A stretch of 64,000 bases of DNA, taken from contig NC_086108.1 of assembly GCF_963921235.1 (NCBI RefSeq), positions 4,650,001 to 4,714,000 of the forward strand, read 5' to 3'. Position numbers and translations under genes: made by a program. Below the pieces are notes generated by a model, which was given only the letters and a program-made list of their open reading frames with translations, had not been told where the DNA came from and searched no databases. Shown here piece by piece: positions 1,936 through 62,879 of this stretch. Every line of letters starts with the position of its first letter. Position 1 is the stretch's first letter. This DNA comes from Mobula hypostoma (taxonomy: Eukaryota).

Positions 1936-2017
1936 TAGCTCTCCACTTTCACCATTCCCAACATCACTTGCTTCCACCAGATTTACAAATTTGCTCCCTG
2001 CTCTGTGTTGACTAATA

Positions 2018-9559: not shown

Positions 9560-10120
9560 GATAGGCAGGTGAAGGTGTTGCGAGATAAGTGGATCGACAG
9601 GTGTAGGTGTTGAAGATAGGTGGATTGACAGGTGAAGGTGTTGGAGATAGGTAGGTGGACAGGTGTAGGCGTTGGAGATAGCTAGTTGGACAGGTGATAT
9701 TGGAGATAGGTATATGGGCAGGTGTAGGTGTTGGAGATAGGTTGATCGACAGGTGAAGGTGTTGGAGATAGGTTAATTGAAGGTCAAGGTGTTGGAGACA
9801 GGTAGATGGACAGGTGATATTGGAGATAGGTATATGGGCAGGTGTAGCTGTTGGAGATAGGTTGATTGACAGGTGAAGGTTTTGGAGATAGGTAGATGGA
9901 CAGGTGAAGGTGGTGGAGGTAGGTTGATTGACAGGTGAAGGTTTTGGAGATAGGTAGATGGACAGGTGAAGGTGGTGGAGGTAGGTTGATCGACGGGTGA
10001 AGGTTTTGGAGATAGGTAGATGGACACGTGTAGGTGTTGGAGATAGGTTTACGGACAGGTGTAGGTGTTGGAGATAGGTTTACGGACAGGTGAAGGTGTT
10101 GGAGATAGGTAGATGGATAG
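9560..10120. repeat. About 31-bp minisatellite (CAGGTGAAGGTGTTGGAGATAGGTAGATGGA-like, some 28-bp units)
   Basis: Units start at 9901, 9932 and 9963. The array begins directly after an RT fragment (KFAKDTAMVGRIS, about 9330-9560). Confidence 0.9.
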
Positions 10121-10660
10121 GAACGTCCTTCTGTACTTTGTCTAGCACTCTTCCATTAACCTCCACTGAGAGACAGATAGTGACTGGTCACTCCCTGACA
10201 CAATCACATGCTTGCCACATTTCCCAACTTGACAATAATCTGCTTTTGGGCTTTCCAGAAAAGAGACCTCCATACTACCCTAGTGGATTCTGGGGCAGAG
10301 GATGAAGTGGCTGGATTATACAGGCAGTGGAGTCACAGAGACTGCAAATGCTGGAATCTGGAGCAACAATCTACTCGAAGAACTCAGTGGGTTGATCAGC
10401 ATCTGTGGGAGGGAAGGAATTGTCAATGTTTCTGGTCAAAACTCTACATAAAAGAGGCGAGGCTGTGTGGGATTGCTGCCTAAGTGGTTCCTCCCAAACT
10501 CCCCAGTTCTGTTCAGCTGATTGTCATCCCGATTATGAGGAAAGGTTGAGTGAGCTCAGACTTTTCTCTTTGGAGAGGAAGAGGATGAGAGGTGACTTGA
10601 TAGAGGTGTACAATATGATAAGAACTAGTACCTTTTTCCCCAGGAGGAAAATGGCCAATA

Positions 10661-11235
10661 CAAGCAACATACATCAAAGTTGCTGGTGAACGCAGCAGGC
10701 CAAGCAGCATCTATAGGAAGAGGCGCAGTCGACGTTTCAGGCCAAGACCCTTCGTCAGGACTAACTGAAGGAAGAGTGAGTAAGGGATTTGAAAGCTGGA
10801 GGGGGAGGGGGAGATGCAAAATGATAGGAGAAGACAGGAGGGGGAGGGATAGAGCCGAGAGCTGGACAGGTGATAGGCAAAAGGGGATACGAGAGGATCA
10901 TGGGACAGGAGGCCTAGGGAGAAAGACGGGGGGGGGGTGACCCAGAGGATGGGCAAGAGGTATATTCAGAGGGACAGAGGGAGAAAAAGGAGAGTGAGAG
11001 AAAGAATGTGTGCATAAAAAGGAGTAACAGCTGGGGTACGAGGGGGAGGTGGGGCCTAGCGGAAGTTAGAGAAGTCAATGTTCATGCCATCAGGTTGGAG
11101 GCTACCCAGACGGAATATAAGGTGTTGTTCCTCCAACCTGAGTGTGGCTTCATCTTTACAGTAGAGGAGGCCGTGGATAGACATGTCAGAATGGGAATGG
11201 GATGTGGAATTAAAATGTGTGGCCACTGGGAGATG
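10661..11235 (-). mobile_element. Young Penelope/Neptune 3' fragment inserted in a CR1 remnant
   Basis: Reverse complement of the endonuclease C-terminus/UTR seen at 49200-49790. CR1 sequence flanks both sides. Confidence 0.85.
10727..10762 (-). ncRNA. Minimal type I hammerhead ribozyme motif (best-preserved copy; sense to the host pre-mRNA)
   Basis: Minus strand reads AGTC CTGACGA A GGGTCTTGGCCT GAAAC GTC GACT. It has stem I AGTC/GACT, CUGANGA and GAAA boxes, palindromic ACGT stem III and a GUC cleavage triplet. Confidence 0.8.
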
Positions 11236-16725: not shown

Positions 16726-17274
16726 TATTTTTTAAGGTATTCCATTAACAAAAATTGTTTTTCTTCCGCAATAGAAAATTGCAATATTTGTGTTGTAGAT
16801 CGGGTCTAGAGCTCAGACCATGCCTCAGAGACTTGAGCTGAAGGGATTAACTCCTGCACAGTACTAAGCCACACACACAAACACACCACAATTTGCTAGA
16901 GGAACTCAGCAGGTCAAACAGTATCTATGGCAGGGAATAAGCAGTCAACGTTTCAGGCTGAGACCCTTCATCAGGAATATTGTTCTATGTTCTATCCACT
17001 TCCCTCCATAGGTTCTCATCAAAGACCCAAGAGATTCTGCAGATGCTGGAAATCCAGAGTAACACACACAGAATGCCGGAGGAACTCAGCAGGTCAGGCA
17101 GCATCTATGGAGGGGAATGAATTCTCAATGTTTCAGGCAGGGATCCTTCATCAGAAGGTGGCTTCTGCGCTCCCCCATTTCTCTCCAGTCCCGATGATTG
17201 GTCTTGGCCAGAAATGCCGAATGTTTATTCCATCCGTAGATGCTGTCTGACTTGCTGAGACCTCCAGAGTTTTA

Positions 17275-17905: not shown

Positions 17906-19589
17906 TGATTTGTGTGTGTGCTGCTCTGGATTTCCAGCATCTGCAGAATCTGATGTGTTCAGTGAAATTAAACGTTGATAGAGCACTGTTGAACTGTGTT
18001 AACATAGTAAAGGCAGCAGTCAATTAGATTTCACAAATTGTAAAGGAAAATGCTCAGATAATTGTGTTTAATTGATGTTGATATTGATAAAACATGATGA
18101 AGTTACTTCTTTCCTTGAAATAGTCATCATGGGATTTTGTTTATCCACCAGAGAAGGGAGACAGTCTGATGTGATACCCGATTGACAGTGTCTTCAAGAA
18201 TGTCACACTCCCTCGGTGCTGCACTGGATATTTGTCTTCTAGTCTTCCAATCACAGTGAGAAACTGACCCACACATGCTTTTGGGGTTAGGTTCTACTTC
18301 CAAGTACATGTGCTAACCCATCTGTAACTCCCTATCAGGTCAGGCTGAATCTATAGACAGGAATAAACTGCTGACGTTTTGGGTCCAGACTGATGAAGGA
18401 TCACGGCCTAAAATATTGACCGTTTACTCCCCACCATAGATGCTGCCTGACCTGCTGAGGTCCACCAGCATTTTGTGTGTGACACTCCAGATTTCCAGCA
18501 TCAGCAGAATCCTTTTGTGTTTGTGTACAGTACTGAGGTTTACTGCAGTGGCATCTGTTTCAGCAGGATTCTCAACCAAGATCCCGACACCTCTCCTACA
18601 CGTGCAAGCGTCTTCCTGGTTCTACTTAGGGCAGGAGAGAAGTACTGTCCCAGCTAGTAACGCTCCCCCAAACTACACTAAAAAAAATCTGGTGTGTTAT
18701 TGTATCATTTGTTAGATTCACGGAGACATAGAAAAGTACAGTACAGACAGAAACAGGCACTTTGGCTTATCCAGTCTGTGCTGAACCACTGAAACTGCCG
18801 ACTCCCATCGACCTGCACCGACCGGGACCATCTCTGTACCCCTGCCATCCATGTGCCTATCCAAACTTCTCTTAAACATTGAAATCAAGGTCACATGCAC
18901 CACTTGCACAGCAGTTCAACACTCTGAGTGAAGAAGTTTCCCCTCGTGTTCCCCTTAAAATTTTCACCTAACACTTTGTTGTAGGTAAACAGGCTGTTAC
19001 AACAATGCTCCTACTTCAAGCCATAAGGTGTCAGAGCAGAATTAAACCATTCAGCCCATCAAGTTTGCTCTGCTGTTGAAAAATTGGTTGATTTATTTTT
19101 CTTCTGCCTTCTCCTGTTAACTCATTTACTAATCAAGAACCAAACAATCTCTGCCTTAAATACACTCAATGTCTTGGTGTCTGTGGCAATGCGTTTCATA
19201 GATTCGCCAACCCCTGGCTCAAGAAATACCTCCTCATCTAAGTTCCAATGGGCACCCTTTTATTCTGTGCCTTGGATGTGGGACTCTCCCACCAAAGGAA
19301 AGATCCTCCCCAAGTCCACTCTATCCAGGCCTTTCAGTACCTGGTAGATTTCAATGAGATCTCCTGTCTCATCCTTCTGAATTGAGTGCAGGTCCAGAGA
19401 CACCAAATGCTTTCATTCCTGGGGTCATTCTTATGAGCCTTCTCTGGACCCTCTCACGGGCCCAAAGTGCTTTGAAATGCTCCAGATCATAAAGGTACGG
19501 TATGTCAAATAAATTCTTCTTTCCTTCCAGGTTTCAGTCTCCAAAATCTCATCATTTGTGACGTACACCCAGGTTCTCTTGCCCCTCCT

Positions 19590-20497: not shown

Positions 20498-21081
20498 GCC
20501 TTTCTCCTACAGTTCACTTTCCTTTCCTATCGGATTCCTTCTTCAGCGCTTTACGTCTTCCGCCTATCCTGTCCCAGCTTCTCATTTCACACCTCTCCCC
20601 TTTCTCCACCCACCTACCTTCCCCCTCACCTGGCTTCACCTGTCACTCTATAGCTATCCTCCTCCCCTTCCACCCACCTTTTTATTCAGACACCTTCCCC
20701 TTTCCTTCCCAGTCCTGATGAAGGGACTCAGCCTGAAACGTCAACTGTTCATTTCTCTCTCTGTGTGGTCTGACCAACGCCGTATGAAGCCTCAACATTA
20801 CATCCATGCTTTTATATTCTACGTCAATAGAAACTAGGTTGTGTTTTCCCTCTCTAAGCAATATTAATAGACCAAATAGTTTTTTTTTAACGACATGAAA
20901 TTCTTGATTCCAGCAGTCGCAGTGGGTACAGAGCAGTTTGTGAGCAGTTTTGGGCCCCTTATCTAAGAAAGGATTGGCTGACATTGGAGATGGTTCGGAG
21001 GAGGTTCACAAAATGATTCTGGGATTGAAAGGCTTGTCACATGAAGAGCGTTTGATGGCTCTGGGTCTCTACTCACTGGAA

Positions 21082-21294
21082 CACACATCAAAGTTGCTGG
21101 TGAACGCAGCAGGCCAAGCAGCATCTATAGGAAGAGGCGCAGTCGACGTTTCAGGCCGAGACCCTGACGAAGGGTCTCGGCCTGAAACGTCGACTGCGCC
21201 TCTTCCTATAGATGCTGCTTGGCCTGCTGCGTTCACCAGCAACTTTGATGTGTGTTGCTTGAATTTCCAGCATCTGCAGAATTCCTGTTGTTTA
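21082..21294 (+). mobile_element. Fold-back Penelope-end mini-element with an 86-bp perfect inverted repeat
   Basis: Arms 21080-21165 and 21171-21256, loop GACGA. TSD CTCTACTCACTGGAA at 21067-21081 and 21295-21309. Confidence 0.9.
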
Positions 21295-21317
21295 CTCTAC
21301 TCACTGGAATTCAGTTC

Positions 21318-22747
21318 TAAGCCTACACTGGTGTCACTCCTTAATTTTTCTTATGCCACATCAACGACTACATTGGTGCTGCTTCCTGCACTCGACTTGT
21401 CGACTTCATCAACTTTGCCTCCAACTTTCACCCTACTCTCAAATTTATCTGATCCATTTCTGACACCTCCCCTTTCTCGATCTCTCTGTCTCAATCTCTG
21501 GACACAGCTTATCTACTGATGTCTATTGTAAACCCACTGACTCTCAAAGCTACCTGGACTATACCTCTCCCACCTTGTTACTTGCACAAATGTGATCCCC
21601 TTCTCTCAATTCCACCGTCTCCACCGTATCTGCTTTCAGGATGAGGCTTTTCATTCCAGAACGAAGGAGATGTTCTCCTTCTTCAAAGAAAGGGGCTTCC
21701 CTTCTTCCTTTTGAATGCATCTCTTCCTTTGCACGCACGTTGGTTCTTACCCCATCCTCCTGCCAGTCCTTCAGGGATAGGGTTCCTCTTGTCCTCACCT
21801 ACCACCCAACCAGCCTCTGTGTCCAGCACATAATTCTCAGGAACTTCCAACATCTCCAACAGGATTCCATCACCAAGCACATCTTCCCACATCCCCTCCC
21901 CCGCCTCACTTTCTGCTTTCTGCAGGAATCACTCCATACGCAACTCCCTTGTCCATTTATCCCTCCCCACTGATCTCCCTCCTTGCACTTAACCTTGCAA
22001 GCGGAACAAGTGCTACACCTGCCGTACACCTCCTCCCTCACTACCATTCAGGGCCCCAAACAGTCCTTCCAGGTGAGGCGACACTTCACCTGTGAGCTTG
22101 TTGGGGTCATCTACCGTATCCTATGCTCCCGGTGTAGCCTCCTGCATATATGTGAGACCCGATGTAGATTGGGAGACTGCTTCGCTGAGCACCTACACTC
22201 CATCCACCAGAAAATGTGGGATCCCCCAGTGGCCACCCATTTTAATTCCACTTCCCATTCCTATTTCGACATGTCAGTCCATGGTCTCCTCTACTGTCGC
22301 GATGAGGCCACACTCAGGTTTGAGGAGCAACACCTTATATTCTGTCAGGGTAGCCTCCAACTGATGGCATGAACATCAATTTCTCGAACTTCCAGTGATG
22401 CCCTCCCCTCCCCATTCCCACTTCTTTCTATCACCTTATCTCCTTACCTGCCATCACCTCCCTCTGGTACTCCCCCTTTTCTTTCTTCATGGCCTCTCCT
22501 ATAGATCCCCCTTCTCCAGTCCTGTATCTCTTTCACTAATCAACTTCCCAGCTCTTTACTTCATCACCACCACCCCAGTTTCACCTATCACTTTGTGTTC
22601 CTTCCTCTGCTCCCCCCACCTTGTAACTCTGAGTTCTCATCTTTTTCCCTCCAGTTCTGATGAAGGGTCTCAGCCCAGAACGTTGAGTGTACTCTTTTCC
22701 ATAGATGCTGCCTGGCCTGCTGAGTTCCTCCAGCATTTTGTGTGTTG
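21318..22747 (+). mobile_element. Degenerate Penelope-like (Neptune-type) element, 3' half
   Basis: RT C-terminus, RVPLVLTYHP, the PCKRNKCYTC linker, and a GVIY...C..C...ICET GIY-YIG remnant. Decayed hammerhead near 22655-22690. Confidence 0.88.
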
Positions 22748-23394
22748 AATGACGGGGGGATCTCATTGAAATCTATCAGATGTTGAAAGGCCTTGATAGA
22801 GTGGATGTGGAGAGGATGTTTCCTATGGTGGAGGTGTCTAAGAGCAGAACACAGCCTCAGAATAGAGGGATATTCATTTCGAATGGAGATGAGGAGTAAT
22901 TTCTTTCGACAGAGAGTGATGAATCTGCGGAATGTGTTGCCACGAGAAGCTGTGGAGGCCAAGTCACTGGGTGTATTTAAGGCAGAGGTTGATAGTTTCT
23001 TGATTAGTCAGGGCACGAAGGGATATGGGGAGAAGATAGGAGATTGGGGCTGACGGGGAAAATGGATCAGCCATGACGAAATGCTGGAGCAGACTTGATG
23101 GGCCAAATGGCCCAATTCTACTATATATCTTATGTAGTAGTCTCTTTTCCCAGTAATTTAACTATTATGTTACCATTCCTATCTTTATGATTAAAAAAGG
23201 ATTCAACTGTAAAGGACATTTCAAACCTGTAGAAGAAAGCTATATAGATGTATGCATTAAATTACATCACCAACTTATCAGAAGACAGCAGACACACCTT
23301 CCTCTCAACAGTAAATTCAAGGGTAAGTGGTGGTGGGGGGGGGAGGAGGAAGAGGATACTGTAAAGGAGTTCCATTCGTAGCAAATAACCATCA

Positions 23395-23930
23395 AACAAA
23401 TATGCAAAAATCTGCAGATGTTGGAAATCGAAAGTAACACACACACACAGACACAATGCTGGAGGAGCTCAGCAGGCCAGGCAGCATCTACAGAAAAGAG
23501 TAAACAGGCGATGTTTCGGGCTGAGACCCTTCATCAGGACTGGAGAGGAAGATGAGAAGTCACAGCAAGAAGGTGGGGGGAGGGGAGGAAGAAGTAAAAG
23601 TGACAGGTGATAGGTGAAATGGAGGGGGAGGGGTGAAGTTGACTGCTGATTGGTGAAAGAGATAAAAGGCTGGAGGACGGGGAATCTGATAGGAGAGGGT
23701 AGAAGACCATGGAAGAAAAGTAAGGGAGGGGGGTAGCAACAGAAGGAAGTGATGGACAGGTAAGGAGATAAGGTGAGAGAGGGAAATGGAAATGGGGGGA
23801 TGGTGAAGGAGGTGGGGGGGGGGCAATTACCGGAAGTTGGAGAAATTGACGTTCATTTTCATCAGGTTGGAGGCTATCCAAATAAAATATAATGTGTTGT
23901 TTTCCTCCAATCTTAGTGTGGCCTCATCAT
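23395..23930 (-). mobile_element. Penelope-like terminal fragment with hammerhead motif (about 23506-23541)
   Basis: Minus strand reads AGTC CTGATGA A GGGTCTCAGCCC GAAAC ATC, with the family UTR and tail. Confidence 0.8.
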
Positions 23931-25402
23931 GGCCTCTTAATTACAAAGATTCAGGAGCCAGACTTAGCAGCAGCACATGTCAATAGAGAATATACATTCT
24001 ACGGTAGACCAGCTTCTACATATGGCCAAGTACAATTACTGGTGGTCACAGCATGCCAGTGTTGGGTTTTAAGAACCTCAAGATGAAGAAAAAGTCCGTG
24101 AGAGGCCAGGTATCTCAGATCTGGCTGGTGGGGAGAGAATGGATGAAGCAGGAGATTGCAACGAGCCTTAGGGTGGAGAGAACATTCAAGACATTGCCCA
24201 AGTTGGGCAAAACAGAAATCTGTCGATTAGCAGTGCAGCAAAGAAGAAGCTTCCAAAGAGTGTGATAGATGGTTAGAAGGGATTTCCTCATCAGACGTTC
24301 TTGTGTCTTGCTTTAGAAGGTCTTGAAGATCTTGCTTGTGTTGAAGTCTTAGGAACTGAACTGAAATATGACTTTTGATTTTGTATTTTATATTCTGTGA
24401 TTTTGCTCGGTTCTTTTTGTAGCCATTTGCCCATGGGGGTGGGAGGGGGGTTTAATGTTTGAATTTTTCCTTTGAACTAGCTGGTTGCATGTTTTTTCTT
24501 TGTTTCGTGACTGTCTGTGGGGAAGACAAATCTCAGGGTTGTATACTGCAAACATACTTCCATAATATATCCATTTTGAATCTTGGGTAATGAAGAAAGT
24601 CAAAGTTATGCATGGGTATGGAGAACTGAAGCAAAAGACTTCAGTGAATGATGATTGAGGTCAAAGCTGAACATATTGCATTAAGATGGATGTTCAAGGC
24701 ATAAAGTGGTCCATGCAGTGATTTTAAGTCACCAGCATTCATTTGCCCCTAGTAATTAATGGCATACAATAATGAGCAACATGTGTAATAGAACTGGCAA
24801 AATAGAACAGTACATGTATTGTTACCTGCGAAGGGATGGGTCAAAGAAAAGTAATTTTTCAGCATTATAAATGTAACCGTTTTTAAAAAATGCATTTACA
24901 ATTCCTTTCCATTAATTAAAAACAGATGTGTTAATAAATGTAACAGTAGGGCCAAATTGAGCTACAGCGATGAAGCAATACCTTCTGTTCCTCTTCTTGA
25001 CAGTGGGAAATACTGTTCCACTGCTCTGTGTGTTCGGGGGTTTGCCCTCGCTATGTGGTGATACCCGCAGGGAATCTGCAGAAAGCCCAAAGCCAATCAG
25101 TGTCATGACCGTGTGCTGAGACACAGCTTCCACTTGTGGGTTTAGAAGATAATCTCATTACCAACTCTTTCATGTTAAACCCAACAGGGAATTCAGAAGA
25201 GACATCGTTTACTCAGAGATGTGGGAATGTGCAAAGTGCTCCCACAGGAAGTGGCTGAGACAAAAAGAAGATTCATTTAATAGCAGGTTGGATAAATGGG
25301 CACGAATGAAAGGAATAGAATGGAAAGGCATGCTTAAATAAACACTGGCATGGATCAGTAGGGCTGAATAACCTGTTCCTGACCTCTATAATCCTTGACA
25401 TA

Positions 25403-26018
25403 CACTCAATGGCCACTTTATTAGGTACTCGTGAATACAAATATCTAATCAGCCAATCATGTGGTAACAACTCAATGCGTAAAAGCATGCAGAGATGGTC
25501 AAGAGGTTCAGTTGTTGTTCAGAACAAAAATCAGAATGGGGAACAAATGTGAACTAAGTGACTTTGACAGTGGAATGATCGTTGGTGCCAGACAAGGTGG
25601 CTTGAGTATCTCAGAAACTGCTGGTCTCCTGGGGTTTCACAAACAACAGTCCCTAGAGCAGGTGTTCCCAACCTTTTTTATGCCATGGACTGATACCGTT
25701 AAGCGAGGGGTCCATGGAACCTAGGTTGGGAACTCCTGTTTACAGAGAATGGTACGAAAAATAACAAAAAAACATCCAGTGAGTGGCAGTTCTGTGGGTG
25801 AAAATGCCTTGTTAATGAGAGGTGAGAGGAGAATGGCCAGACTGGTTCAAGCTGACAAGAAGGTGACAGTAACTCAAATAACCACACGTTACAACAGCGG
25901 TGTGCAGAAGAGTATGACTGAACACTCAACACGTTGAACCCCTTGAAGTGGATGAGCTACAGCAGCAGGAGACCACACTGGGTTTCTCTCCTGTACTTAA
26001 TAAAGTGGCCACTAAATG
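25403..26018 (+). mobile_element. Non-autonomous Tc1-like DNA transposon containing a hAT-type MITE (about 25659-25738)
   Basis: TIRs CACTCAATGGCCACTTTATTAGGTAC / GTACTTAATAAAGTGGCCACTAAATG with a left TA. Transposase N-terminal HTH remnant LSDFDSGMIVGARQGGLSISETA. Confidence 0.85.
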
Positions 26019-26086
26019 TGAAACCTAATCCCCCATTCATTTCTCGATCGCAAAAGATTGAGCTTCAGAAAGCTTGCAACTCCTAC

Positions 26087-26281
26087 GTTTTTGTTTCGGT
26101 GTATCCAGAAGATCGCGCCTGGGTGCTGGATGTTTTTCTCCACCCTGCTGGGCACACGTTCTTCACATTCTGATAGGAGTAGAAAGATTTGGGGGCAGAA
26201 GCAGAGAGCTGAGAACATGACACCGGTGGCTTGGACACGTCTGGTGGCGGGGTCTTGTGGGTGTGAGAGGGATAGCTTGAC
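26087..26281 (-). CDS. SIPA1L3: SIPA1L3 coding exon D (195 nt, phase 2 to 2): SSYPSHTHKTPPPDVSKPPVSCSQLSASAPKSFYSYQNVKNVCPAGWRKTSSTQARSSGYTETK
   Basis: Acceptor aaattgcag| and donor |gtagga. Lies within ORF 26083..26340. QLSASxPKSF and PxGWxx match SIPA1L3; phases agree on both sides. Confidence 0.9.
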
Positions 26282-26428
26282 CTGCAATTTAAGAGTGTTG
26301 GAAAAATAAAATTAAAAATAAACAAAAATAAATCAAGCAACAGTGTGCTGTTATTCTAAGCAATTCTCATCTCTTTCAAAATCAGAATCAGGTTTAATAT
26401 CACAGACAAACTGTATGCCATGAATGTT

Positions 26429-26655
26429 AACTACAGGAATTCTGCAGATGCTGGAAATTCAGGCAACACACATCAAAGTTGCTGGTGAACGCAGCAGGCC
26501 AGGCAGCATCTCTAGGAAGAGGTACAGTTGACGTTTCAGGCCGAGACCCTTCGTCAGGACTAACTGACGAAGGGTCTCGGCCTGAAACGTTGACTGTACC
26601 TCTTCCTAGAGATGCTGCCTGGCCTGCTGCGTTCACCAGCAGATTTGATGTGTGT
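26429..26655 (-). mobile_element. Fold-back Penelope-end mini-element with a 96-bp inverted repeat and hammerhead cores on both strands
   Basis: Arms 26462-26557 and 26564-26659 (about 4 mismatches), loop GACTAA. TSD TGCCATGAA(T/C)GTT at 26416-26428 and 26656-26668. Confidence 0.9.
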
Positions 26656-26814
26656 TGCCATGAACGTTGTTGTTTTGCAGTAGAAGCACAGTACAATACA
26701 TAAAAATACTATAAATTACAATAAGAAATTAAAAAAAAAAAATTGCATAAGGGCAGAAAGAGAACAAAATTAGTGAGGTAGTGTTCACGGATTGGTTCAC
26801 TGTTCAGAAATCTG

Positions 26815-27515
26815 AACCTGCACTCAACATCAGTAAGACTGAAAAACTGACTGTGGACTTTAGGAAGGGTAAGACAAGGGGACACACACCAGTCCTCACA
26901 GAGGGATCAGAAGTGGAGAGAGTGAGCAATTTCAAGTTCCTGGCTGTCAAGATCTCCGAGGATCTAACCCGGTCCTAACTTATCGATGCAGCAATGGAGA
27001 AGACACCACAGCGGCTATATTTCATTAGGAGTTTAAGGAGAATTGGTATGTCACCAAAGACACTCGCAAATTTCTACAGAGAGCATTCTAACCGGCTGCA
27101 TCACCATCTGATATGGGAGCAGGAGCTACTGCACAGGATCGAAATAAGCTGCACTAGCCTCCACGTGCACTAGCCTCCACGACATCTTCAAGGAGCGATG
27201 CCTCAAAAAGGCTGTGTCCATCATTAAGGACCCCCATCACCCAGGACATGCCCCCTTCTCATTGCTACCGTCAGGAAGGAGGTACAGGAGCCTGAAGTAA
27301 CACAATCAACAATTCAGGAACAGCTTCTTCACCTCTGCCATCTGATTTCTGAATGAACTTTGAACCCATGGACACTATCTCATTACATTTTTATTTCTAT
27401 TTTTGCACTACTTATTTAATTTAACTAATATATATATTAGTTGCTTTGCACTGTTGCTGCAAAGTCAACAAATTTCACAATATACACCAGGGATATAAAA
27501 CCTGGTTCTTATTCC
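26815..27515 (+). mobile_element. Rex1/Babar-like LINE 3' fragment (abundant family)
   Basis: FKFLAVKISEDL and the IIKDPHHPGH/LPSGRRYRSL-type end. Related copies lie at about 5365-5755, 33530-33980, 35045-35375, 40530-41150, 52107-52670, 53090-53620 and 59455-60285. Confidence 0.85.
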
Positions 27516-28991
27516 GATGGCAGTGGGGAAGGAACTGCTCCTAAAACACTGAGTGTGTGTCACAGGCTGCTGTACCTCCTCCTCGATGGGGTAATAAGAA
27601 GAGTCCTAGCTGATGGCTCCTCTCTCAGTCTTCTCATTTTTGAGGAGAAAGCTACAGCGTATGACAAAAACATCTTCTCAGAAAAAGTTGACACTTATCT
27701 CAGTGAACTTGGATGAAGATCGGAGGGTAGGTAGGTGCTAGCAAGACTTTGCCTGAATGATTGAAAGGTCCCCACCCCATGCTCCCACCCTTTCTGTTGT
27801 TGATCTTGCTCAGTCAACAGCTGCCTTGGCAAGTCAGAATGTCATGTGTTAAGACCTCACTCTGACACCCAAGCACGTGAGCTGCTCTGACAAAATGGTG
27901 TACAACTCGGAGCTGTGTTTGCCCCAGGGACTGGATCGTTTGCTCGGCAGAAGACTACATCTACAGAGTTCAACTGCATGATTTGTCAGTATTCATCGAC
28001 TCAGGGTGTTGGACTACATTCTTTTTGTGTGACTGCATTTCACTGAATATACCTGCTTTGTGCCATGTGTGACTGACGGTATTATGTATTGCACCTTGGC
28101 CTCGGAGTTCATTTGTCTATATTCATGGGTATTCAGGTATGGTTGAAGGACAATTGAACTTCAACTTAATGAACTTACAGGTGAGATCTAACAGCTAATT
28201 TCCTTCAATATGTGGTTCCTCAACCAACTGGCAAAACTCTAAATATTGCAGTTTAGCAAAACTGGCCACTTTGATCACCTTACACAAAATTGAATTTCAT
28301 CATCAAACCCCCACCACCCAGGTCGTCCTCTCTTCTCACTGCTGCCATCAGGTAGAAGATACAAGAGTCTCAGGACTCACACCTCCAGGTTCAAGAACAG
28401 TTACTACCCCTCAACCTTCAGGCTCTTGAACAAAAGGGGATAACTACACTCACTTGCCCCATCAATGCAATGAAATGTTCCCACAACCAATGATTTCACT
28501 TTAAGGACTCTCTATCTCATTATCTCATGTTCTATTTATTTATTTATATCTGCATCTTCACAGTTTGTTGTCTTCGGCACTCTGGTTGATCTTTCATTGA
28601 TCCTGTTATAGTTACTATTCTATAGATATGCTGAGATTGCCCGCAGGAAAATGAATCTCAGAATTGTATACGGTGACACATACTGTATGTACTTGGACTT
28701 ACTTTGCTTTTTTTTTGTTTTAATTCTGTTCATTCTTGTATAAAAAGTGGGCTGGAAGTCATGAGCCTTTGGGGTGCGGCCCTGTGAATAACCTGATTCC
28801 TCACCAATGTTGCCAACTGAAGCGCTGAAATATTGAGACAGCAGGCGCAGCTGTCAGAGGCCTCTGCACTCGAGCGGTCTCTCTCTTTCGATGGTGTGTT
28901 GGCTCAGAGTTGGGGGAACTCGAATAAGTGACACTGCAGACTGTAACATCAGAACAGAGAGCTGTTGGCCTCCCTCCCCAATGTGGCAGGA

Positions 28992-29074
28992 GGGTCCTGA
29001 CGAAGGGTCTCGGCCTGAAACCTCTTCCTATAGATGCTGCCTGGCCTGCTGCGTTCACCAGCAACTTTGATGTG
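28992..29074 (+). mobile_element. 83-bp Penelope-end insertion starting at the hammerhead, with the cleavage triplet deleted
   Basis: GTC CTGACGA AGGGTCTCGGCCT GAAAC joined directly to CTCTTCCTATAG. TSD TGTGGCAGGA at 28982-28991 and 29075-29084. Confidence 0.8.
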
Positions 29075-29449
29075 TGTGGCAGGAAGGATATCTCCCTCTC
29101 CCTCGCTAGTGAGAGAGAGCCTGGAATATCAGTGTTGGGATGGACAGTAGCTTTCTATGGACTCTAGATCACGGTCTCTATGGGCTTTGCTATTGCTTGC
29201 GTTGTGGGTGGTGGTGATGGGGTGAATGCTTTTGCTGGAGCTAGGGGAGAGTGAGGGGGAGGGGAGGGTGAGGGGAGGAGAGGGGAGGGGGAGGGGGAGG
29301 GTTGCTGATTTTGCTGCTGCTTGTGTGTGTAAGAGGACTTCGGTATTCTAACAATTTTCTGTCATTTATTCTTTGTTTTTTCCTCTCTGTTTTGTGAATA
29401 TCTGTGAAGAGTAAGACTTTCTGGTTGGATACTGTATACATTCTCCAAT

Positions 29450-30560
29450 ATTAATGATCTGGATGATGGGGTGGTAAATTGGATTAGTAAGTATGCAGAT
29501 GAAACTAAGATAGGTGGCGTTGTGGATAATGAAGTAGGTTTTCAAAGCTTGCACAGAGATTTAGGCCAGTCAGAAGAGTGGGCTGAAAGATGGCAGATGG
29601 AGTTTAATGCTGATAAATGTGAGGTGCTACATTTTGGTAGGACTAATCAAAATTAGGACATACATGGTAAATGGTAGGGCATTGAAGAATGCATTAGAAC
29701 AGAGGGATCTAGGAATAATGGTGCATAGTTCCCTGAAGGTGGAATCTCACGTGGTTAGGGTAGTGAAGAAAGCTTTTGGTATGCTGGCCTTTATTAATCA
29801 GAACATTGAGTATAGGAGTTGGGATGTAATGTTGAATTTGTACAAGGCATTGGTAAGGCCAAATTTGGAGTATTGTGTACAGTTCTGGTCACCGAATTAT
29901 AGGAAAGATGTCAACAAAATTGAGAGAGTACAGAGCAGATTTACTAGAATGTTAAGTAACATACATCAAAGTTGCTGGTGAACGCAGCAGGCCAAGCAGC
30001 ATCTATAGGAAGAGGCGCAGTCGACGTTTCAGGCCGAGACCCTTCGTCAGGACGAAGGGTCTCGGCCTGAAACGTCGACTGTGCCTCTTCCTATAGATGC
30101 TGCTTGGCCTGCTGCGTTCACCAGCAACTTTGATGTATGTTGCTTGAATTTCCAGCATCTGCAGAATTCCTGTTGTTTACTAGAATGTTACCTGGGTTTC
30201 ATCTCTTAAGTTACAGAGAAAGGTTGAACAAGTTGGGTCTTCATTCTTTGGAACGTAGAAGGTTGAGGGTGGACTTGATAGAGGTGTTTAAAATTATGAG
30301 GGGAATAGATAGAGTTGACGTGGATAGGCTTTTTCCATTGAGAGTGGGGGAGATTCAAACAAGAGGACATGAGTTGAGAGTTAAAGGGCAAAAGTTTAGG
30401 GGTAACATGAGGGGGAACTTCTTTACTCAGAGAGTGGTAGCTGTGTGGAACGAGCTTCCAGCAGAAGTGGTTGAGGCAGGTTCGATGTTGTCATTTAAAG
30501 TTAAATTGGATAGCTATATGGATGAGGAAAGGAATGGAGGTTTATGGGCTGAGTGCAGGT
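29450..30560 (+). mobile_element. CR1-clade LINE RT/3' fragment split by a Penelope-end insertion
   Basis: ISKYADETKIGG, WQMEFNADKC, LVRPNLEYCVQFWSP and NFFTQRVVAVWNELP. Confidence 0.92.
29955..30175 (+). mobile_element. Fold-back Penelope-end mini-element with a 95-bp inverted repeat
   Basis: Arms 29954-30048 and 30051-30145 (2 mismatches). TSD TTTACTAGAATGTTA at 29940-29954 and 30176-30190. Hammerhead core on the minus strand at 30019-30053. Confidence 0.9.
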
Positions 30561-47254: not shown

Positions 47255-50200
47255 TAAAGTGCCTGCTCTGGCCTTTTTCATAGCCAATTGCTGATGGGAC
47301 ATCAACCTTCTCGACTTCACCACTCCTCTCTCCAATTCCAACCTCACTCCCTCCAAACGCTCTGCTCTACGCTCCCTCCGCATCAATCCTAACCCCATCA
47401 TCAAACCCGCCGATAAAGGGGGTGATGTAGTAGTCTGGCGGACTGACCTCTGCCTTGCTGAGGCCCAGCGACAACTCTCAGACACCTCCTCTTACTTACT
47501 CCTTGAACAGGATCCCACTAAGCAGTACCAGGCCATTGTCTCCCACACCAACACTGACCTTATTAGCTCTGAGGATCTCCTATCCACTGCCACCAACCTC
47601 ATAGTTCCTGCACCCCGCACCTCCCGTTTCTACCTCCTACCCAAGATCCACAAACCTGCTTGTCCAGGTAGACCCATTGTTTCAGCTTGTTCCTGCCCCA
47701 CTAAGCTCATATCTGCATACCTCGACTCCATCTTATCCTTCACCACCGCCACCCCGCCACCCAGTTCAGTCCCTTCCTACCTACATCCATGACATTTCAC
47801 ACACTCTGGATCTTTTCTATGATTTTAGATTCCCTGGCCCCCATCATCTTATTTTCACTATGGATCTCCAAACCCTCTACACCTCCATCCCTCACCAGGA
47901 AGGCCTCAAAGCTCTCCGTTTCTTTCTGAACACCAGACCCATCTAGTTCCCCTCCACTATCACTCTCCTCCGTCTAGCAGGACTTGTCCTCACTCTTAAT
48001 CATTTCTCCTTTGGCTCCTCCCACTTCCTTCAAACAAAAGATGTAGCCATGGGCACTCACATGCATCCCAGCTATGTCTGCCTTTCTAACCAGTTCCCCT
48101 CTACCACCACTCTCCTCCGTCTAGCGGAATTAGTCCTTACCATTAATAATTTCTCCTTTGGCTCCTCCCACTTCCTTCAAACTAAAGGTGTAGCCATGGG
48201 CGACCGTATGGGTCCCAGCTATGCCTGCCTTTTTGTTGGCTTTGTGGAACAATCTACATTCCAAGCCTATACTGGTATCCATCCCCCACTTTTCCTTCGC
48301 TACATCGACGACTGCATTGGCGCTGCTTCCTGCACGCATGCTGAGCTCGTTGACTTCATTAATTTTGCCTCCAACTTTCACCCTGCCCTCAAATTTACCT
48401 GGTCCACTTCCGACACCTCCCTCCCCTTTCTTGATCTTTCTCTCTCTATCTCGGGAGACAGCTTATCTATTGATGTCTACTATAAGCCTACGGACTCTCA
48501 GAGCTATCTGGAATATTCCTCTTCTCACCCTGTCTCTTGCAAAAACGCCATCCCCTTCTCGTAATTCCTCCGTCTCCGCCACATCTGCTCTCAGGATGAG
48601 GCCTTTCATTCCAGGATGAAGGAGATGTCTTCCTTTTTTAAAGAAAGGGGTTTCCCTTCCTCCACCATCAACTCTGTTCTCAAACGCATCTCCCCCATTT
48701 CACGCACATCTGCTCTCACCCCATCCTCCCGCCACCCCACTAGGGATAGGATTCCCCTTGTCCTCACCTACCACCCCACCAGCCTCCGGATCCAACATAT
48801 AATTCTCCATAACTTCCACCACCTCCAACAGGATCTCACCGCCAAGCACATCTTTCCCTCCCCTACCCTTCTGCTTTCCGTAGGGATCGCTCCCTACGCA
48901 ACTCCCTTGTCCATTCGTATCCCCCATCCCTTCCCACCGATCTCCCTCCGGGCACTTATCCTTGTAAGCAGAACAAGTACTACACATGCCCTTACACTTC
49001 CTCCCTCACTACCATTCAGGGCCCCAGACAGTCCTTCCAGGTGAGGTGACACTTCACCTGTGAGTCGGCTGGGGTGATATACTGTGTCCGATGCTCCCGA
49101 TGCGGCCTTCTATATATTGGCGAGACCTGACGCAGACTGGGAGATCGTTTCGCTGAACACCTACGCTCTGTCCACCAGAGAAAGCAGGATCTCCCAGAGG
49201 CCACACATTTTAATTCCAAGTCCCATTCCCATTCTGATATGTCTATCCACGGCCTCCTCTACTGTCAAGATGAAGCCACACTCAGGTTGGAGGAACAACA
49301 CCTTATATTCTGTCTCGGTAGCCTCCAACCTGATGGCATGAACATTGACTTCTCTAACTTCCATTAATGCCCCTCCTCCCCTTCTTACCCCATCCCTTAT
49401 TTATTTATTATTTTTCCCCCCGTTCTTTCTCTCTCTCTTTTTCCTCCCTCTGTCCCTCTCACCATAACTCCTTGCCTGCTCTCTATCTTCCTCTGGTGCT
49501 CCTCTCCCCCCTTCCTTTCTCCCTAGGCCTCCCGTCCCATGATCCTCTTCCTTCTCCAGCCTTGTATCCCTTTTGCCAATCACCTGTCCAGCTTTTGGCT
49601 CCATCCCTCCTGTCTTCTCCTATCATTTCGGATCTCCCCTTCCTCCTCCCACTTTCAAATCTCTTACTATCTCTTCTTTCAGTTAGTCCTGACAAAGGGT
49701 CTCGGCCTGAAATGTGGACCGTACCTCTTCCTAGAGATGCTGCCTGGCCTGCTGCCTTCCACCAGCATTTTGTGTGTGTTGCTTGAATCTCCAGCATCTG
49801 CAGATTTCCTCGTGCACGCCTGCCTTTCTGTCAGCTACATGGAACAGTCTATGTTCCAACCCTACACTGGTGTCCATCCCACACATTTCCTACGCTACAT
49901 TGACGACTGCGTTGGTGCTGCTTCCTGCACCCATACTGAGCTCGTCGACTTCATCAACTTTGCCCCCAAACTTCCACCCTGCCCTCAAATTTACCTGGTC
50001 CATTTCCAACACCTCCCTCCCCTTTCTCGATCTCACTGTCTCTGTCTCTGGAGACAGCATATCTACTGATGTCTATTATAAACCACAGACTCTCACAGTT
50101 ATCCAGACTATACCTTTTCCCACTGTTACTTGTAAAAACATCATCCCCTTCTCTCAATTTCTCTGTAACGGCCATATCTGCTCTCAGGACGAGGTTTTTC

Positions 50201-61330: not shown

Positions 61331-62879
61331 GGTCAGAGTTAACCAGAGCAGGTCTATTCATATGAAACATTAACTGCCTTCCTCTTCGTAGGTGCTGCCT
61401 AACTGGTATTTCCAGAATTTTCTGTACCATGTTTGTAGTAAATTATAACTCCTAAAAGGGACAGTCATCTTCAAACTCTCCTTCATAACCATCTGAGATT
61501 GACATCTGTCTAAAGACAGCAGAGCTTAAGAATGTGGGTCTAAAGAAGGGAAGCTACCAATGAGGTGTTACGGCATGTCAACTATTCTTTGATGCTCAGC
61601 ACATGTTTTCTGTGAAGAGTAACATATCAAATTCTTTTCTTTCCCTTTCTCCAATCAACAGCTCCCCGTCCTGTCCCACTCTCCCTCCACTGAGACACAA
61701 CTTCACTGAGCTCCGCTCTGTGCCCCACCAGCCCGTCCTGTTCACTCTCATTCCACGGTGACAGTGTTGCTGAACTTTCCTCTATTCCCCACCAACCGGC
61801 CTTGTTCCAGTTGACTGAATCGGCATTAAACAACAGTCTTTTTCCTGCCACATTAGCCCAGTGATAACGAATGGGAGAGTGTGTGATTATACCTTTGTGC
61901 CCTTTTCCTCAGAAGAATGCATGACTCCCAGTACATCAAAAAATTTGTCTTTATTGTGGGGATATCATAAAATATATCGTACAATACATTCCTGTTTACC
62001 CATAAGTTGAGGGTTGAAGAGTCCCATTAGAAGTTGAACTTACGACAACGCTGTAGTGTTTCTGGAGCCATTTACATTTCAAAACGTAGATCAAGTTCAA
62101 AATAGCCTTACCCAAAGAATAAGCTTGTATAGAGAAACATAGAAACATAGAAAATAGGTGCAGGAGTAGGCCATTCGGCCCTTCGAGCCTGCACCGCCAT
62201 TTATTATGATCATGGCTGATCATCCAACTCAGAACCCCGCCCCAGCCTTCCCTCCATACCCCCTGATCCCCGTAGCCACAAGGGCCATATCTAACTCCCT
62301 CTTAAATATAGCCAATGAACCGGCCTCAACTGTTTCCTGTGGCAGAGAATTCCACAGATTCACCACTCTCTGTGTGAAGAAGTTTTTCCTAATCTCGGTC
62401 CTAAAAGGCTTCGCTTTTATCCTCAAACTGTTGGAAATCTAGTGTAACACACACCAAATGTTGGAGGAACTCAGCAGATCAGACAGCATCTGTGGAAGGG
62501 AAGAAGCAGCTGATGTTTCGGGTGGAGATCCTTCATATAGCTTGATTAAGGTTCTTGGCTAGAAATGTCAGCCGGATATTCTCCTCCATGGATGCTGCCT
62601 GATCTGCTGAGATCTCCCAGCATTTTGTGTGTGCCAGTCTGGATTTCCAGCATCTGCAGAATCTCTTGTGCTTACGATATTTGTGACGTGCTTATAATGC
62701 GGAAAAATTTAATGGAATGCAGAATGATTGGAATGCAAGCAATCTGGTTATAAAATGCAACTGGAAGGAGTGCATTCTGCTGACGGACATTTTATCTCAC
62801 CTATTATTTAGAGAAGGTGACATAGATGTTACAGTATTGATTGTCACACAGCACCACCTCGTCTTTAAAGATGACAAAG

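What the first reader, a model, noticed from the sequence alone, without database searches (positions are those of the whole stretch)
21067..30190. Three young fold-back mini-retroelements whose inversion junction sits at a hammerhead ribozyme core
Seen: insertions at 21082-21294, 26429-26655 and 29955-30175 each consist only of a Penelope terminal sequence plus its inverted copy (86, 96 and 95 bp arms), with 13-15 bp TSDs. One arm carries an extra tail of about 30-40 bp. The apex differs in each (loops GACGA, GACTAA, AG) but always lies within or beside CTGACGA. Diagnostic bases are shared by the two arms of one element but differ between elements. The 26.5 kb arms (CTCTAGG, GGTAC) match the long copy at about 49.7 kb; the 30 kb arms (ATACATC, CTATAGG) match the copy at 10.7 kb. 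Known: Penelope-like elements carry minimal hammerheads and often have inverted terminal segments. Inference: these are not copies of one MITE. Each hairpin was generated de novo during integration, with the ribozyme region fixing where copying stops or switches strand. This amounts to a ribozyme-delimited route that seeds long hairpins in introns.
Basis: partly seen in the sequence, partly recalled or inferred. Interest (0 to 1): 0.8.

Follow-up and report, generated by a model that had tools for sequence, protein, structure and literature searches.

The report
Mini fold-back Penelope retroelement insertions
The three hairpin-shaped insertions are real, young, minimal copies of a Penelope-like jumping gene, each folded anew when it landed, and the fold sits beside the element's small hammerhead ribozyme motif rather than at its cutting site.

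Summary
All three insertions are inverted repeats of 86-105 bp with 2-6 bp loops and 13-15 bp target-site duplications, and each has a ~35-bp tail on one arm only. The arm is the 3' end of a Penelope-like element (PLE): endonuclease C-terminus, CT-rich UTR, minimal hammerhead motif, then two reverse-transcription start zones.

They are not copies of one hairpin master. In 50 genomic fold-backs sampled without regard to apex there are 43 different apex strings. Both arms carry the same subfamily haplotype in 34 of 45, against 6.3 expected by chance.

The turn point is strongly localised. Of 32 short endpoints, 25 lie between -32 and +8 relative to CUGACGA. That is 20-60 nt upstream of the predicted scissile bond. 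A smaller class turns at the cleavage site or its palindrome.

The architecture (inverted 5'-truncated copy, tail at one end, both strands primed at two adjacent sites) is already described for PLEs (PMC8557442, PMC11167929). "Ribozyme-delimited" is not shown. Short template RNAs beginning just 5' of the hammerhead fit better.

The parts
21082..21294 (+). Fold-back element 1. Tail-less inverted arm about 21082-21165, loop 21166-21170, sense arm 21171-21256, tail 21257-21294. Junction class: tail arm from -1, short arm from +7.
21067..21081 (.). Left copy of the 15-bp target-site duplication of element 1; the right copy is at 21295-21309.
21160..21196 (+). Minimal hammerhead motif in the tail arm of element 1: helix I 5' strand AGUC, CUGACGA from 21164, one unpaired A, helix II GGGU/GCCU, GAAAC, GUC, predicted cut after 21191, helix I 3' strand GACUG.
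   Evidence: Read directly. Motif features compared with PMC4209133. No Rfam hit.
26429..26655 (-). Fold-back element 2, with its tail on the left in window orientation (26429-26461). Arms 26462-26557 and 26564-26655. Junction class: tail arm from about -10, short arm from 0, 4-nt overlap TCAG.
26416..26428 (.). Left copy of the 13-bp target-site duplication of element 2; the right copy is at 26656-26668, with one mismatch.
29955..30175 (+). Fold-back element 3. Tail-less arm 29955-30048, loop AG, sense arm from 30051, tail to 30175. Junction class (-3,+2), the commonest in the genome sample.
29940..29954 (.). Left copy of the 15-bp target-site duplication of element 3; the right copy is at 30176-30190.
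48512..49810 (+). 5'-truncated PLE copy (post-RT/endonuclease region, CT-rich UTR, hammerhead, tail). It carries the same haplotype as element 2.
10657..11234 (-). 5'-truncated PLE copy with the haplotype of element 3. It lacks most of the tail.
28996..29080 (+). Linear mini copy running from -3 to about +92, with no tail and no inverted arm, flanked by a GGCAGGA(G)GG repeat. It shows that the tail-less start zone and the -3 endpoint also occur on their own.
62448..62662 (+). Older, diverged fold-back of a related PLE subfamily, with its apex again beside the CUGA-type box.
17034..17154 (-). Sense arm of an older fold-back of a related subfamily. The inverted arm lies upstream of it across an approximately 30-nt filler at the apex. 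A further old fold-back lies at 18373-18518 (+).

Best explanation
Each element is a minimal insertion of an endonuclease-bearing Penelope-like element, made de novo at integration. Coordinates below count from the C of CUGACGA as 0.

Shown:
- Both target strands are cut 12-16 bp apart, which gives the TSD.
- One arm always starts in a distal zone (+125..+138, the tail arm) and the other always in a proximal zone (about +88..+96, the tail-less arm).
- Both arms normally carry the same template haplotype.
- Their inner ends cluster at the 5' edge of the hammerhead motif.
- Junctions show 0-4 nt microhomology or short fillers.
- Either arm can be the one that reaches further 5'.

Inferred:
- Two reverse-transcriptase protomers prime on the two DNA strands at two adjacent sites of one short RNA.
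- Both cDNAs run to the 5' end of that RNA.
- Each cDNA then uses the other as second-strand template after annealing at a short, partly palindromic microhomology (GTC/GAC, CCT/AGG, TCAG/CTGA).
- The turn point therefore marks the 5' end of short template RNAs that start just upstream of the hammerhead, most simply pLTR-initiated transcripts. It does not mark ribozyme cleavage.
- A minority of events use an RNA end at or near the cleavage site.
For: 1. PLE identity. Long copies run from the endonuclease C-terminus through a CT-rich UTR into the arm. Pfam finds GIY-YIG at 35.4 bits and RVT_1 at 29.3 bits (cut-off 29.6) in one related unit. The same HHR-tail block also precedes the ORF leader in 5 of 6 sampled copies.

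2. De novo origin. There are 43 distinct apex strings in 50. Haplotypes are identical in both arms in 34 of 45, against 6.3 expected, across at least 13 haplotypes. Arm-to-arm differences concentrate at CpG sites. TSDs are all different: 38 of the 48 found (from 49 elements analysed, one without a detectable TSD, one dropped by the script) are 12-16 bp.

3. One arm of each kind. All 50 anchored fold-backs and all 23 measurable fold-backs of the tail-selected sample pair a tail arm with a tail-less arm. None is tail/tail or bare/bare.

4. No polarity. The tail arm reaches further in 21, the short arm in 26, and they are equal in 3. The same junction classes occur in both orientations. A single snap-back cDNA cannot give this, because a tail cannot be copied from a tail-less cDNA.

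5. Localisation. Among 49 independent tail-bearing insertions, 25 have their 5' endpoint in -32..+8. Only 4 lie between +9 and +49, and 3 between -33 and -297. Genome pattern counts are 3,297 and 1,293 around the CUGACGA box, against 524 for the next anchor downstream.

6. Not a general RT block. At 5' pLTRs, 293 of 356 copies continue to -37, against 21 of 37 at insertion termini (Fisher p 0.0008).

7. Literature. The anole PLE protein cleaves and extends both strands, starts at two adjacent internal sites with the tail between them, and is predicted to be a dimer (PMC11167929, main text). The D. virilis Penelope transcript starts in the pLTR 46 nt before a 75-nt intron (PMC2377424, passages). 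The 3' end of that intron abuts helix I of the hammerhead (PMC4209133).

8. Not an assembly artefact. Contigs of four runs from three studies show opposite-strand joints at -3..+7 and many loose ends at -3.
Against: - No RNA evidence was obtained. No listed run is on record as RNA, and contigs cannot show starts. The RNA 5' end is therefore inferred only.
- Endpoints are spread over about 40 nt (modes at -3/-4, -7 and -16..-18), not at a single start.
- The contrast between 5' pLTRs and termini is 82% against 57%, not all-or-none. It rests on exact-anchor counts and on 37 sampled termini.
- One element (L087) has arms of two different subfamilies at all 5 diagnostic sites, so two templates are sometimes used.
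- Recurrent classes exactly at the cleavage site or its GTCGAC/ACGT palindromes exist.
- The samples come from the first 34 Mb (anchored set) and the first 3 Mb (tail set) of one contig, and only from copies with exact anchors.
- The RVT_1 score is just below Pfam's cut-off, and I did not see a full-length copy end to end.
Confidence: 0.62

Rival explanations
1. Ribozyme-delimited turn: hammerhead self-cleavage, or the folded or protein-assisted ribozyme, sets where cDNA synthesis stops or switches strand.
For: - The hot zone abuts the motif: the CUGACGA box and the helix I 5' strand.
- The same placement is seen in older, diverged subfamilies in the window.
- A secondary set of 524 fold-backs turns between about +7 and +37. 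It includes recurrent classes with one arm starting exactly at +28, the predicted 5' end after cleavage, and perfect palindromes centred on GTC|GAC.
- Cleavage of the anole PLE hammerhead needed the protein (PMC11167929), so a ribozyme-protein complex on the template is plausible.
Against: - The main cluster is 20-60 nt upstream of the scissile bond, so both arms contain the whole ribozyme.
- The same motif is read through in 293 of 356 5' pLTR copies.
- In vitro, hammerhead mutants did not change insertion or product size, and no RNA-seq reads ended at the cleavage site in the anole (PMC11167929).
- The young family has a G-U pair in place of the conserved G10.1-C11.1 pair (against PMC4209133).
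- No Rfam hammerhead model matches at E up to 10.
- The classes at +25/+28 can equally be explained by the GTCGAC and ACGT palindromes.
Confidence: 0.17
2. Single-cDNA snap-back: one target-primed cDNA folds back on itself at the self-complementary stretch around CUGACGA and copies itself. The second arm ends where protein or RNA still covers the tail.
For: - Both arms nearly always share one haplotype.
- The zone holds short inverted repeats (TCAG/CTGA, GTC/GAC, CCT/AGG, CCTTC/GAAGG) that match the observed overlaps: 26 of 50 junctions have 1-4 nt of overlap.
Against: - In 26 of 50 the tail-less arm reaches further 5' than the tail arm. A tail-less first cDNA cannot template a tail.
- Loops of 0-2 nt (for example class -3,+2, 8 of 50) are sterically poor for intramolecular priming.
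- Tail-less linear copies ending at about +92 exist, so that zone is an independent start site (window 28996-29080; loose ends at +91..+100).
- L087 has arms from two templates.
Confidence: 0.1
3. An ordinary non-autonomous hairpin family (MITE-like or SINE-like) amplified from a few fold-back masters.
For: With element 1 as query, all 40 places scored in the genome were full-length at 90-100% identity. Of the 30 non-window fold-backs retrieved, 24 share element 1's apex.
Against: - That uniformity is query bias. In the apex-blind sample, element 1's apex occurs once in 50 and there are 43 distinct apex strings.
- The copies sharing element 1's apex carry different haplotypes, symmetric in both arms, and different TSDs.
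- Haplotypes match those of long PLE copies.
- TSDs are 12-16 bp and variable.
Confidence: 0.03

Closest known systems
Canonical EN+ Penelope-like element insertion units (pLTR, adjacent inverted 5'-truncated copy, 30-40 bp tail at one end), as described in PMC8557442 (passages read) and in Schostak 2008, PMC2377424 (passages read)
   Same: Inverted copy abutting the sense copy. Tail of about 35 bp on one side only. Hammerhead in the terminal repeat. RT plus GIY-YIG coding upstream. High 5' truncation.
   Different: Here both copies are truncated to about 90-135 nt, so nothing but the two termini is left. This form makes up about half of sampled tail-bearing insertions (25 of 49, of which 20 turn within -32..+8). 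The truncation point is not random.
In vitro behaviour of the anole Poseidon element PAc (Frangieh et al. 2024, PMC11167929, main text read)
   Same: Both DNA strands are cut and extended. Reverse transcription starts at two adjacent internal RNA sites, and the sequence between them is the tail. The hammerhead lies a short way upstream of those sites.
   Different: In vitro, no difference in start-site use between strands was seen. In this genome the two strands of one event always use different sites (73 of 73). Here the start sites lie just upstream of the ORF's ATG (about +166), not inside the ORF.
Twin priming of LINE-1 (recalled from memory: Ostertag and Kazazian 2001; not read here)
   Same: The second target strand also primes reverse transcription, giving an inverted 5' segment and microhomology at the inversion junction.
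   Different: L1 twin priming inverts a different, upstream part of the RNA, which gives an inversion and not a palindrome. Here both arms are the same segment, and the second priming site is a fixed element-encoded site.
Paired minimal hammerheads on opposite strands in Schistosoma (Cervera and de la Pena 2014, PMC4209133, text read)
   Same: Two PLE-type minimal hammerhead motifs lie close together in opposite orientation.
   Different: Those were reported 100-700 bp apart and not analysed further. Here the motifs are 0-60 nt apart, and the junction and arm genealogy have been analysed.
MITEs and fold-back DNA transposons
   Same: Short, palindromic, flanked by TSDs, high copy number.
   Different: No fixed consensus hairpin. 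The apex is hypervariable. The arms covary with retroelement subfamilies. There is a one-sided tail. TSDs are 12-16 bp.

Membership tests
Penelope-like element (EN+) | [quoted passage not shown] | tested here: met
   The endonuclease C-terminal frame runs into the CT-rich UTR and the arm. GIY-YIG scores 35.4 bits (cut-off 22.6) and RVT_1 29.3 bits (cut-off 29.6, just below) in a related unit. Open frames of up to 964 aa end at this C-terminus. Pieces of the copy inside the window gave no Pfam hit.
Penelope-like element (EN+) | Pseudo-LTR: the same terminal block lies both before the ORF and after it | tested here: met
   The HHR-tail block is followed by the ORF leader in 5 of 6 sampled copies and at 356 places genome-wide. 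The same block follows the ORF stop.
Penelope-like element (EN+) | 30-40 bp tail at one end, and an adjacent inverted 5'-truncated copy | tested here: met
   The tail is about 35 nt: short-arm ends have their mode at +92..+94 and tail ends at +128. One tail arm is paired with one tail-less arm in 73 of 73 fold-backs.
Minimal PLE hammerhead (min-HHR, PMC4209133) | CUGANGA, GAAA and UH boxes in type I order, with helix I of 4-5 bp and helix II | tested here: met
   The sequence reads AGUC-CUGACGA-A-GGGU(CUCG)GCCU-GAAAC-GUC|GACUG. This is by inspection, with no energy or covariation test.
Minimal PLE hammerhead (min-HHR, PMC4209133) | [quoted passage not shown] | tested here: met
   An unpaired A follows CUGACGA. 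ACGU is a 4-nt palindrome (criteria).
Minimal PLE hammerhead (min-HHR, PMC4209133) | Conserved G10.1-C11.1 pair | tested here: not met
   The young family has GGGU/GCCU, a G-U pair at that position. Some older copies have GCCC.
Minimal PLE hammerhead (min-HHR, PMC4209133) | Self-cleavage | not testable with these tools
Rfam hammerhead models give no hit at gathering score or at E up to 10. That is expected for a motif without helix III, but it is no support.
MITE / fold-back DNA transposon | Copies descend from a hairpin master: fixed apex, with left and right arms evolving as separate lineages | tested here: not met
   43 apex strings in 50. Arm haplotypes are identical within elements in 34 of 45, against 6.3 by chance.
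L1-type twin priming | The inverted part is a different, adjoining segment of the template | tested here: not met
   Both arms cover the same coordinates, about 0 to +92.

The most novel reading that the evidence does not exclude
The thousands of mini fold-backs may be a genomic record of an obligatorily paired integration reaction. A dimeric PLE ribonucleoprotein would sit on one short RNA at two adjacent start sites about 35 nt apart and prime one cDNA on each target strand. The two cDNAs would then template each other after running off an RNA whose 5' end is set by a promoter or processing signal immediately 5' of the hammerhead. That signal would be the conserved pyrimidine tract plus YAG-TYC, which reads both as an initiator-like motif and as a 3' splice site. 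If so, any copy retaining -35..+140 could be a self-sufficient template, and the hammerhead region would double as the core of a minimal mobile unit. That unit seeds at least 5,000 near-perfect 90-bp hairpins, which are potential dsRNA sources, in this genome.
Probability: 0.3. Interest if true: 0.6.

Novelty: new member of a known kind. Interest (0 to 1): 0.42.

Why it matters
How PLEs integrate is still poorly understood. Their "complex tandem/inverted" insertions and one-sided tails have only recently been linked to double-strand priming at two internal RNA sites in a test tube. This genome supplies thousands of natural end-products of the simplest possible event. They give three constraints that any model must meet:
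- one tail arm is always paired with one tail-less arm;
- both arms almost always derive from one template;
- the junction has no polarity.

The sharp pile-up of endpoints at the 5' edge of the hammerhead, but not at its scissile bond, bears on what the ribozyme is for. The evidence argues against simple end-definition by cleavage. It points to a short RNA species whose origin could be tested directly.

Practically, such near-perfect 200-bp palindromes are a known hazard for assembly and repeat annotation, and may be mistaken for MITEs or miRNA precursors. Rfam gave sub-threshold miRNA-family hits here.

Tried and rejected
- Rfam at gathering score over the whole window gave 0 hits. At E up to 10 over 20.5-30.5 kb it gave only sub-threshold miRNA-hairpin families and no hammerhead family.
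- RNA evidence: no RNA holder is listed for the family. The four runs laid are contigs of unknown kind, so starts, strands and expression cannot be read.
- Looking for a full-length parent:
  - 10 kb upstream of the long copy in L011 holds no long ORF, and that copy is preceded by its own inverted 188-nt arm.
  - The copy in L034/L042 is truncated inside a CT-rich satellite.
  - The approximately 4.9-kb array on contig C130 is a duplicated block of PLE fragments plus flank, not a head-to-tail PLE tandem.
- Pfam on nine ORF pieces of window 45.9-49.4 kb gave no family at E up to 0.01.
I used pattern counts instead.
- A branch-point/lariat reading of the -16..-18 and -23 endpoints, and a cap-derived extra G at -3, were considered. 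Neither can be told apart from the templated sequence.
- Covariation analysis of the hammerhead helices on the window's diverged copies was dropped, because those are dead copies evolving neutrally.
- Literature: two full-text searches found no paper describing PLE mini fold-backs with an analysed apex. The searches were 'Penelope-like, hammerhead, pLTR' and 'Penelope, retrotransposon, inverted, hairpin, template switching'. The 2026 retrozyme preprint has no occurrence of 'hairpin' or 'palindrom', and its only occurrence of 'inverted' is in its reference list. Supplements of these papers were not opened and may bear on this.

Full report
WHAT IS THERE

The three insertions are as described.
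- Element 1 (21082-21294) has two 86-nt arms that are 100% complementary, a 5-nt loop and a perfect 15-bp target-site duplication (TSD).
- Element 2 (26429-26655) has 96-nt arms at 96%, a 6-nt loop and a 13-bp duplication with one mismatch.
- Element 3 (29955-30175) has arms of about 95 nt, a 2-nt loop and a perfect 15-bp duplication.
- In each, one arm alone carries a further 33-38 nt.
- A 22-nt probe from the arm matches 12 times in the window and never in 100 shuffles.

WHAT THE ARM IS

Single-arm copies in the window and elsewhere continue upstream through a CT-rich stretch into the last 78 codons of an open frame. That frame ends in a typical GIY-YIG endonuclease C-terminus. A related genomic unit gives Pfam GIY-YIG at 35.4 bits and RVT_1 at 29.3 bits, just under the 29.6 cut-off. 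The endonuclease tail occurs at more than 150 scored places out of 164,542 first-look candidates, with open frames of up to 964 aa ending there. The long copy "at 49.7 kb" spans 48512-49810.

In 5 of 6 sampled ORF-linked copies the same block also precedes the ORF. There the tail runs on into a leader with an ATG at about +166. This is a pseudo-LTR arrangement, so the arm is the terminal block of a Penelope-like element (PLE).

I count positions from the C of CUGACGA as 0. The arm reads: helix I 5' strand AGUC (-4..-1), CUGACGA, one unpaired A, helix II GGGU/GCCU, GAAAC, GUC with the predicted cut after +27, then GACUG. This fits the minimal PLE hammerhead of Cervera and de la Pena: an extra base after position 9, no helix III, and a palindromic ACGU. 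One exception is that the conserved G10.1-C11.1 pair is G-U in the young family. No Rfam hammerhead model matches, and activity is untested.

MASTER COPY OR DE NOVO

With element 1 as query, all 40 scored genomic places were full-length. Of the 30 fold-backs retrieved, 24 had element 1's apex. That turned out to be query bias.

A pattern asking only for the two inverted 15-mers at +10, with 0-30 nt between them, finds 3,297 places. The reversed control finds 0. The first 50 places on contig C1 were fetched, with these results.
- There are 43 different apex strings. The largest classes have three members, and element 1's apex occurs once.
- TSDs are all different. Of the 48 found (from 49 elements analysed), 38 are 12-16 bp, with the mode at 14.
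- At five subfamily-diagnostic sites, both arms of an element carry the same haplotype in 34 of 45 readable elements. Five elements with a truncated or deleted arm were left out.
- Random pairing gives a mean of 6.3 and a maximum of 16 in 10,000 permutations. At least 13 haplotypes are present.
- Ten of the 11 discordant elements differ at one site.
- Differences between arms concentrate at CpG positions, as expected for decay after insertion.
- The same haplotypes occur in long copies and in 5' pLTRs.

The hairpins therefore did not descend from a hairpin master. Each was built from one single-arm template.

ANATOMY OF THE EVENT

All 50 anchored fold-backs pair one arm ending at +122..+141 with one ending at or below +101. 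The same holds for all 23 measurable fold-backs in a second, tail-selected sample. That is 73 of 73, with no tail/tail or bare/bare case.

The outer ends define two start zones: mode +92..+94 and mode +128. A linear, tail-less mini copy in the window (28996-29080) shows that the proximal zone is a start site in its own right.

At the apex, 26 of 50 junctions share 1-4 nt, 5 are blunt and 19 hold 1-11 nt of filler. The arm that reaches further 5' is the tail arm in 21, the tail-less arm in 26, and neither in 3. The commonest junction classes, (-3,+2) with 8 and (-7,+3) with 5, occur in both orientations relative to the tail.

A single cDNA snapping back cannot produce this, because a tail cannot be copied from a tail-less first strand. 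The pattern fits two cDNAs, one primed on each target strand at different sites. Each then copies the other after annealing at short, partly palindromic homologies.

This matches what was found for the anole element PAc in vitro. Both strands were cleaved and extended, synthesis started at two adjacent internal RNA sites with the tail between them, and the protein was predicted to be a dimer (PMC11167929). It also matches the published PLE hallmarks of an adjacent inverted 5'-truncated copy and a one-sided 30-40 bp tail (PMC8557442; the 34-bp repeat in PMC2377424).

The near-constant identity of arm haplotypes suggests that both cDNAs come from one RNA molecule. One element (L087) has arms of two subfamilies at all five sites, so two templates are occasionally used.

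WHERE THE TURN LIES

The exact 33-nt tail occurs 43,216 times. I classified the first 50 places, which give 49 independent insertions because two are duplicates.
- 25 have an adjacent inverted arm.
- 10 are short linear copies with TSDs directly at their 5' ends.
- 14 run on for at least 298 nt.

The furthest 5' point lies between -32 and +8 in 25 of 49. Of the 32 insertions that end between +120 and -297, 25 end in those 41 nt (binomial p about 1e-19 against a uniform spread). Only 4 end between +9 and +49, so this is not simple early fall-off.

In the anchored sample the modes are -3 (12), -4 (9) and -7 (5). Fold-backs with 31-61 nt between the anchors number 1,293 and mostly have one arm reaching -10 to -30. 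Inverted anchors at +37 give 524. These include recurrent classes with an arm starting exactly at +28, and palindromes centred on GTC|GAC or ACGT.

But its main peak is at the 5' edge of the hammerhead, 20-60 nt upstream of the scissile bond. Only a minor class sits at the cleavage site, where palindromic microhomology is an equally good explanation.

Contigs from four runs of three studies show the same picture: a roughly ten-fold rise in depth from about -11..+4, many loose ends at -3, and opposite-strand joints at -3..+7. The structures are therefore not an artefact of this assembly.

WHY THERE

If the motif were a general block to the reverse transcriptase, it should also stop synthesis at 5' pLTRs. 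Among copies where the block is followed by the ORF leader:
- 356 contain -4..+12;
- 328 contain -10..+6;
- 293 contain -37..-21.

At least 82% read through the zone, against 21 of 37 at insertion termini (Fisher p 0.0008). The excess of endpoints at termini therefore points to a separate population of short templates whose 5' ends lie in the zone, or to a stop specific to the first approximately 130 nt of synthesis.

The sequence just 5' of helix I is a pyrimidine tract followed by YAG-TYC. It is conserved across diverged subfamilies in the window. By my own reading, not a tool result, it resembles both an initiator element and a 3' splice site.

In D. virilis Penelope the transcript starts in the pLTR from an internal TATA-less promoter, 46 nt before a 75-nt intron (PMC2377424). 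That intron ends at the 5' end of hammerhead helix I (PMC4209133). A transcript start close upstream of the hammerhead is thus in line with known PLE organisation.

I could not test it. No RNA run is on record for this family, and contigs cannot show starts. In the anole system, hammerhead mutants did not alter insertion and no reads ended at the cleavage site, which also speaks against ribozyme-defined ends.

VERDICT

The "ribozyme-delimited new route" is not supported.

What goes beyond the literature I could search is the quantitative picture:
- the strict pairing of the two start sites;
- one template for both arms;
- a junction without polarity;
- a 40-nt endpoint hot zone abutting, but not at, the ribozyme's cut site.

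The claim about introns was not examined.

Noticed in passing
window 1-1936: A 16-bp tandem array (unit CCACACCCCACCTGTC), about 121 copies at 88% matches, fills the start of the window. A similar C-rich satellite surrounds a truncated PLE copy on another contig (L042).
   Followed up: no
L087 (G000:C1:31892555-31893042): A fold-back whose two arms belong to different subfamilies at all five diagnostic sites, with an otherwise ordinary (-3,+2) junction and a 13-bp TSD. It is the one clear two-template event among 45.
   Followed up: partly
L031 9185-9372 with 9374-10000 (G000:C9, about 139.15 Mb): An unequal fold-back: a 188-nt inverted arm abuts an approximately 760-nt sense copy that reaches into the endonuclease frame. 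Further examples with apices at -128 to -505 are L109, L117, L130, L138 and L142.
   Followed up: partly
L123/L124 (G000:C130:559000-578000): A block of about 4.9 kb repeated at least three times. It holds PLE fragments (GIY-YIG, RVT_1, an embedded inverted arm) plus shared non-PLE flank. This is a segmental or satellite-like duplication rather than a PLE tandem.
   Followed up: partly
window 21000-21081 and 29880-29954: Elements 1 and 3 both sit inside copies of another interspersed repeat whose frame reads like the end of a LINE-type ORF. The TSDs fall in that repeat.
   Followed up: no
window 21114-21222, 26491-26630, 29992-30107: The hairpins give sub-threshold Rfam hits to miRNA precursor families (mir-3926, mir-2131, mir-H2; 38-54 bits against cut-offs of 82-92). 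This is a likely source of false miRNA calls.
   Followed up: no
L145 about 1150-1228 (G000:C12): A copy with a long open frame is 5'-truncated and directly preceded by an old, diverged inverted arm of a related subfamily.
   Followed up: no
L097 and L143 (G000:C1, about 0.17 Mb and 2.96 Mb): Two linear copies start at +36 and share about 70 nt of upstream flank. They are one insertion carried along by a later duplication or by a host repeat.
   Followed up: no
window 9566-10121: A 31-bp tandem array of about 18 copies lies next to the truncated PLE copy at 10657-11234.
   Followed up: no
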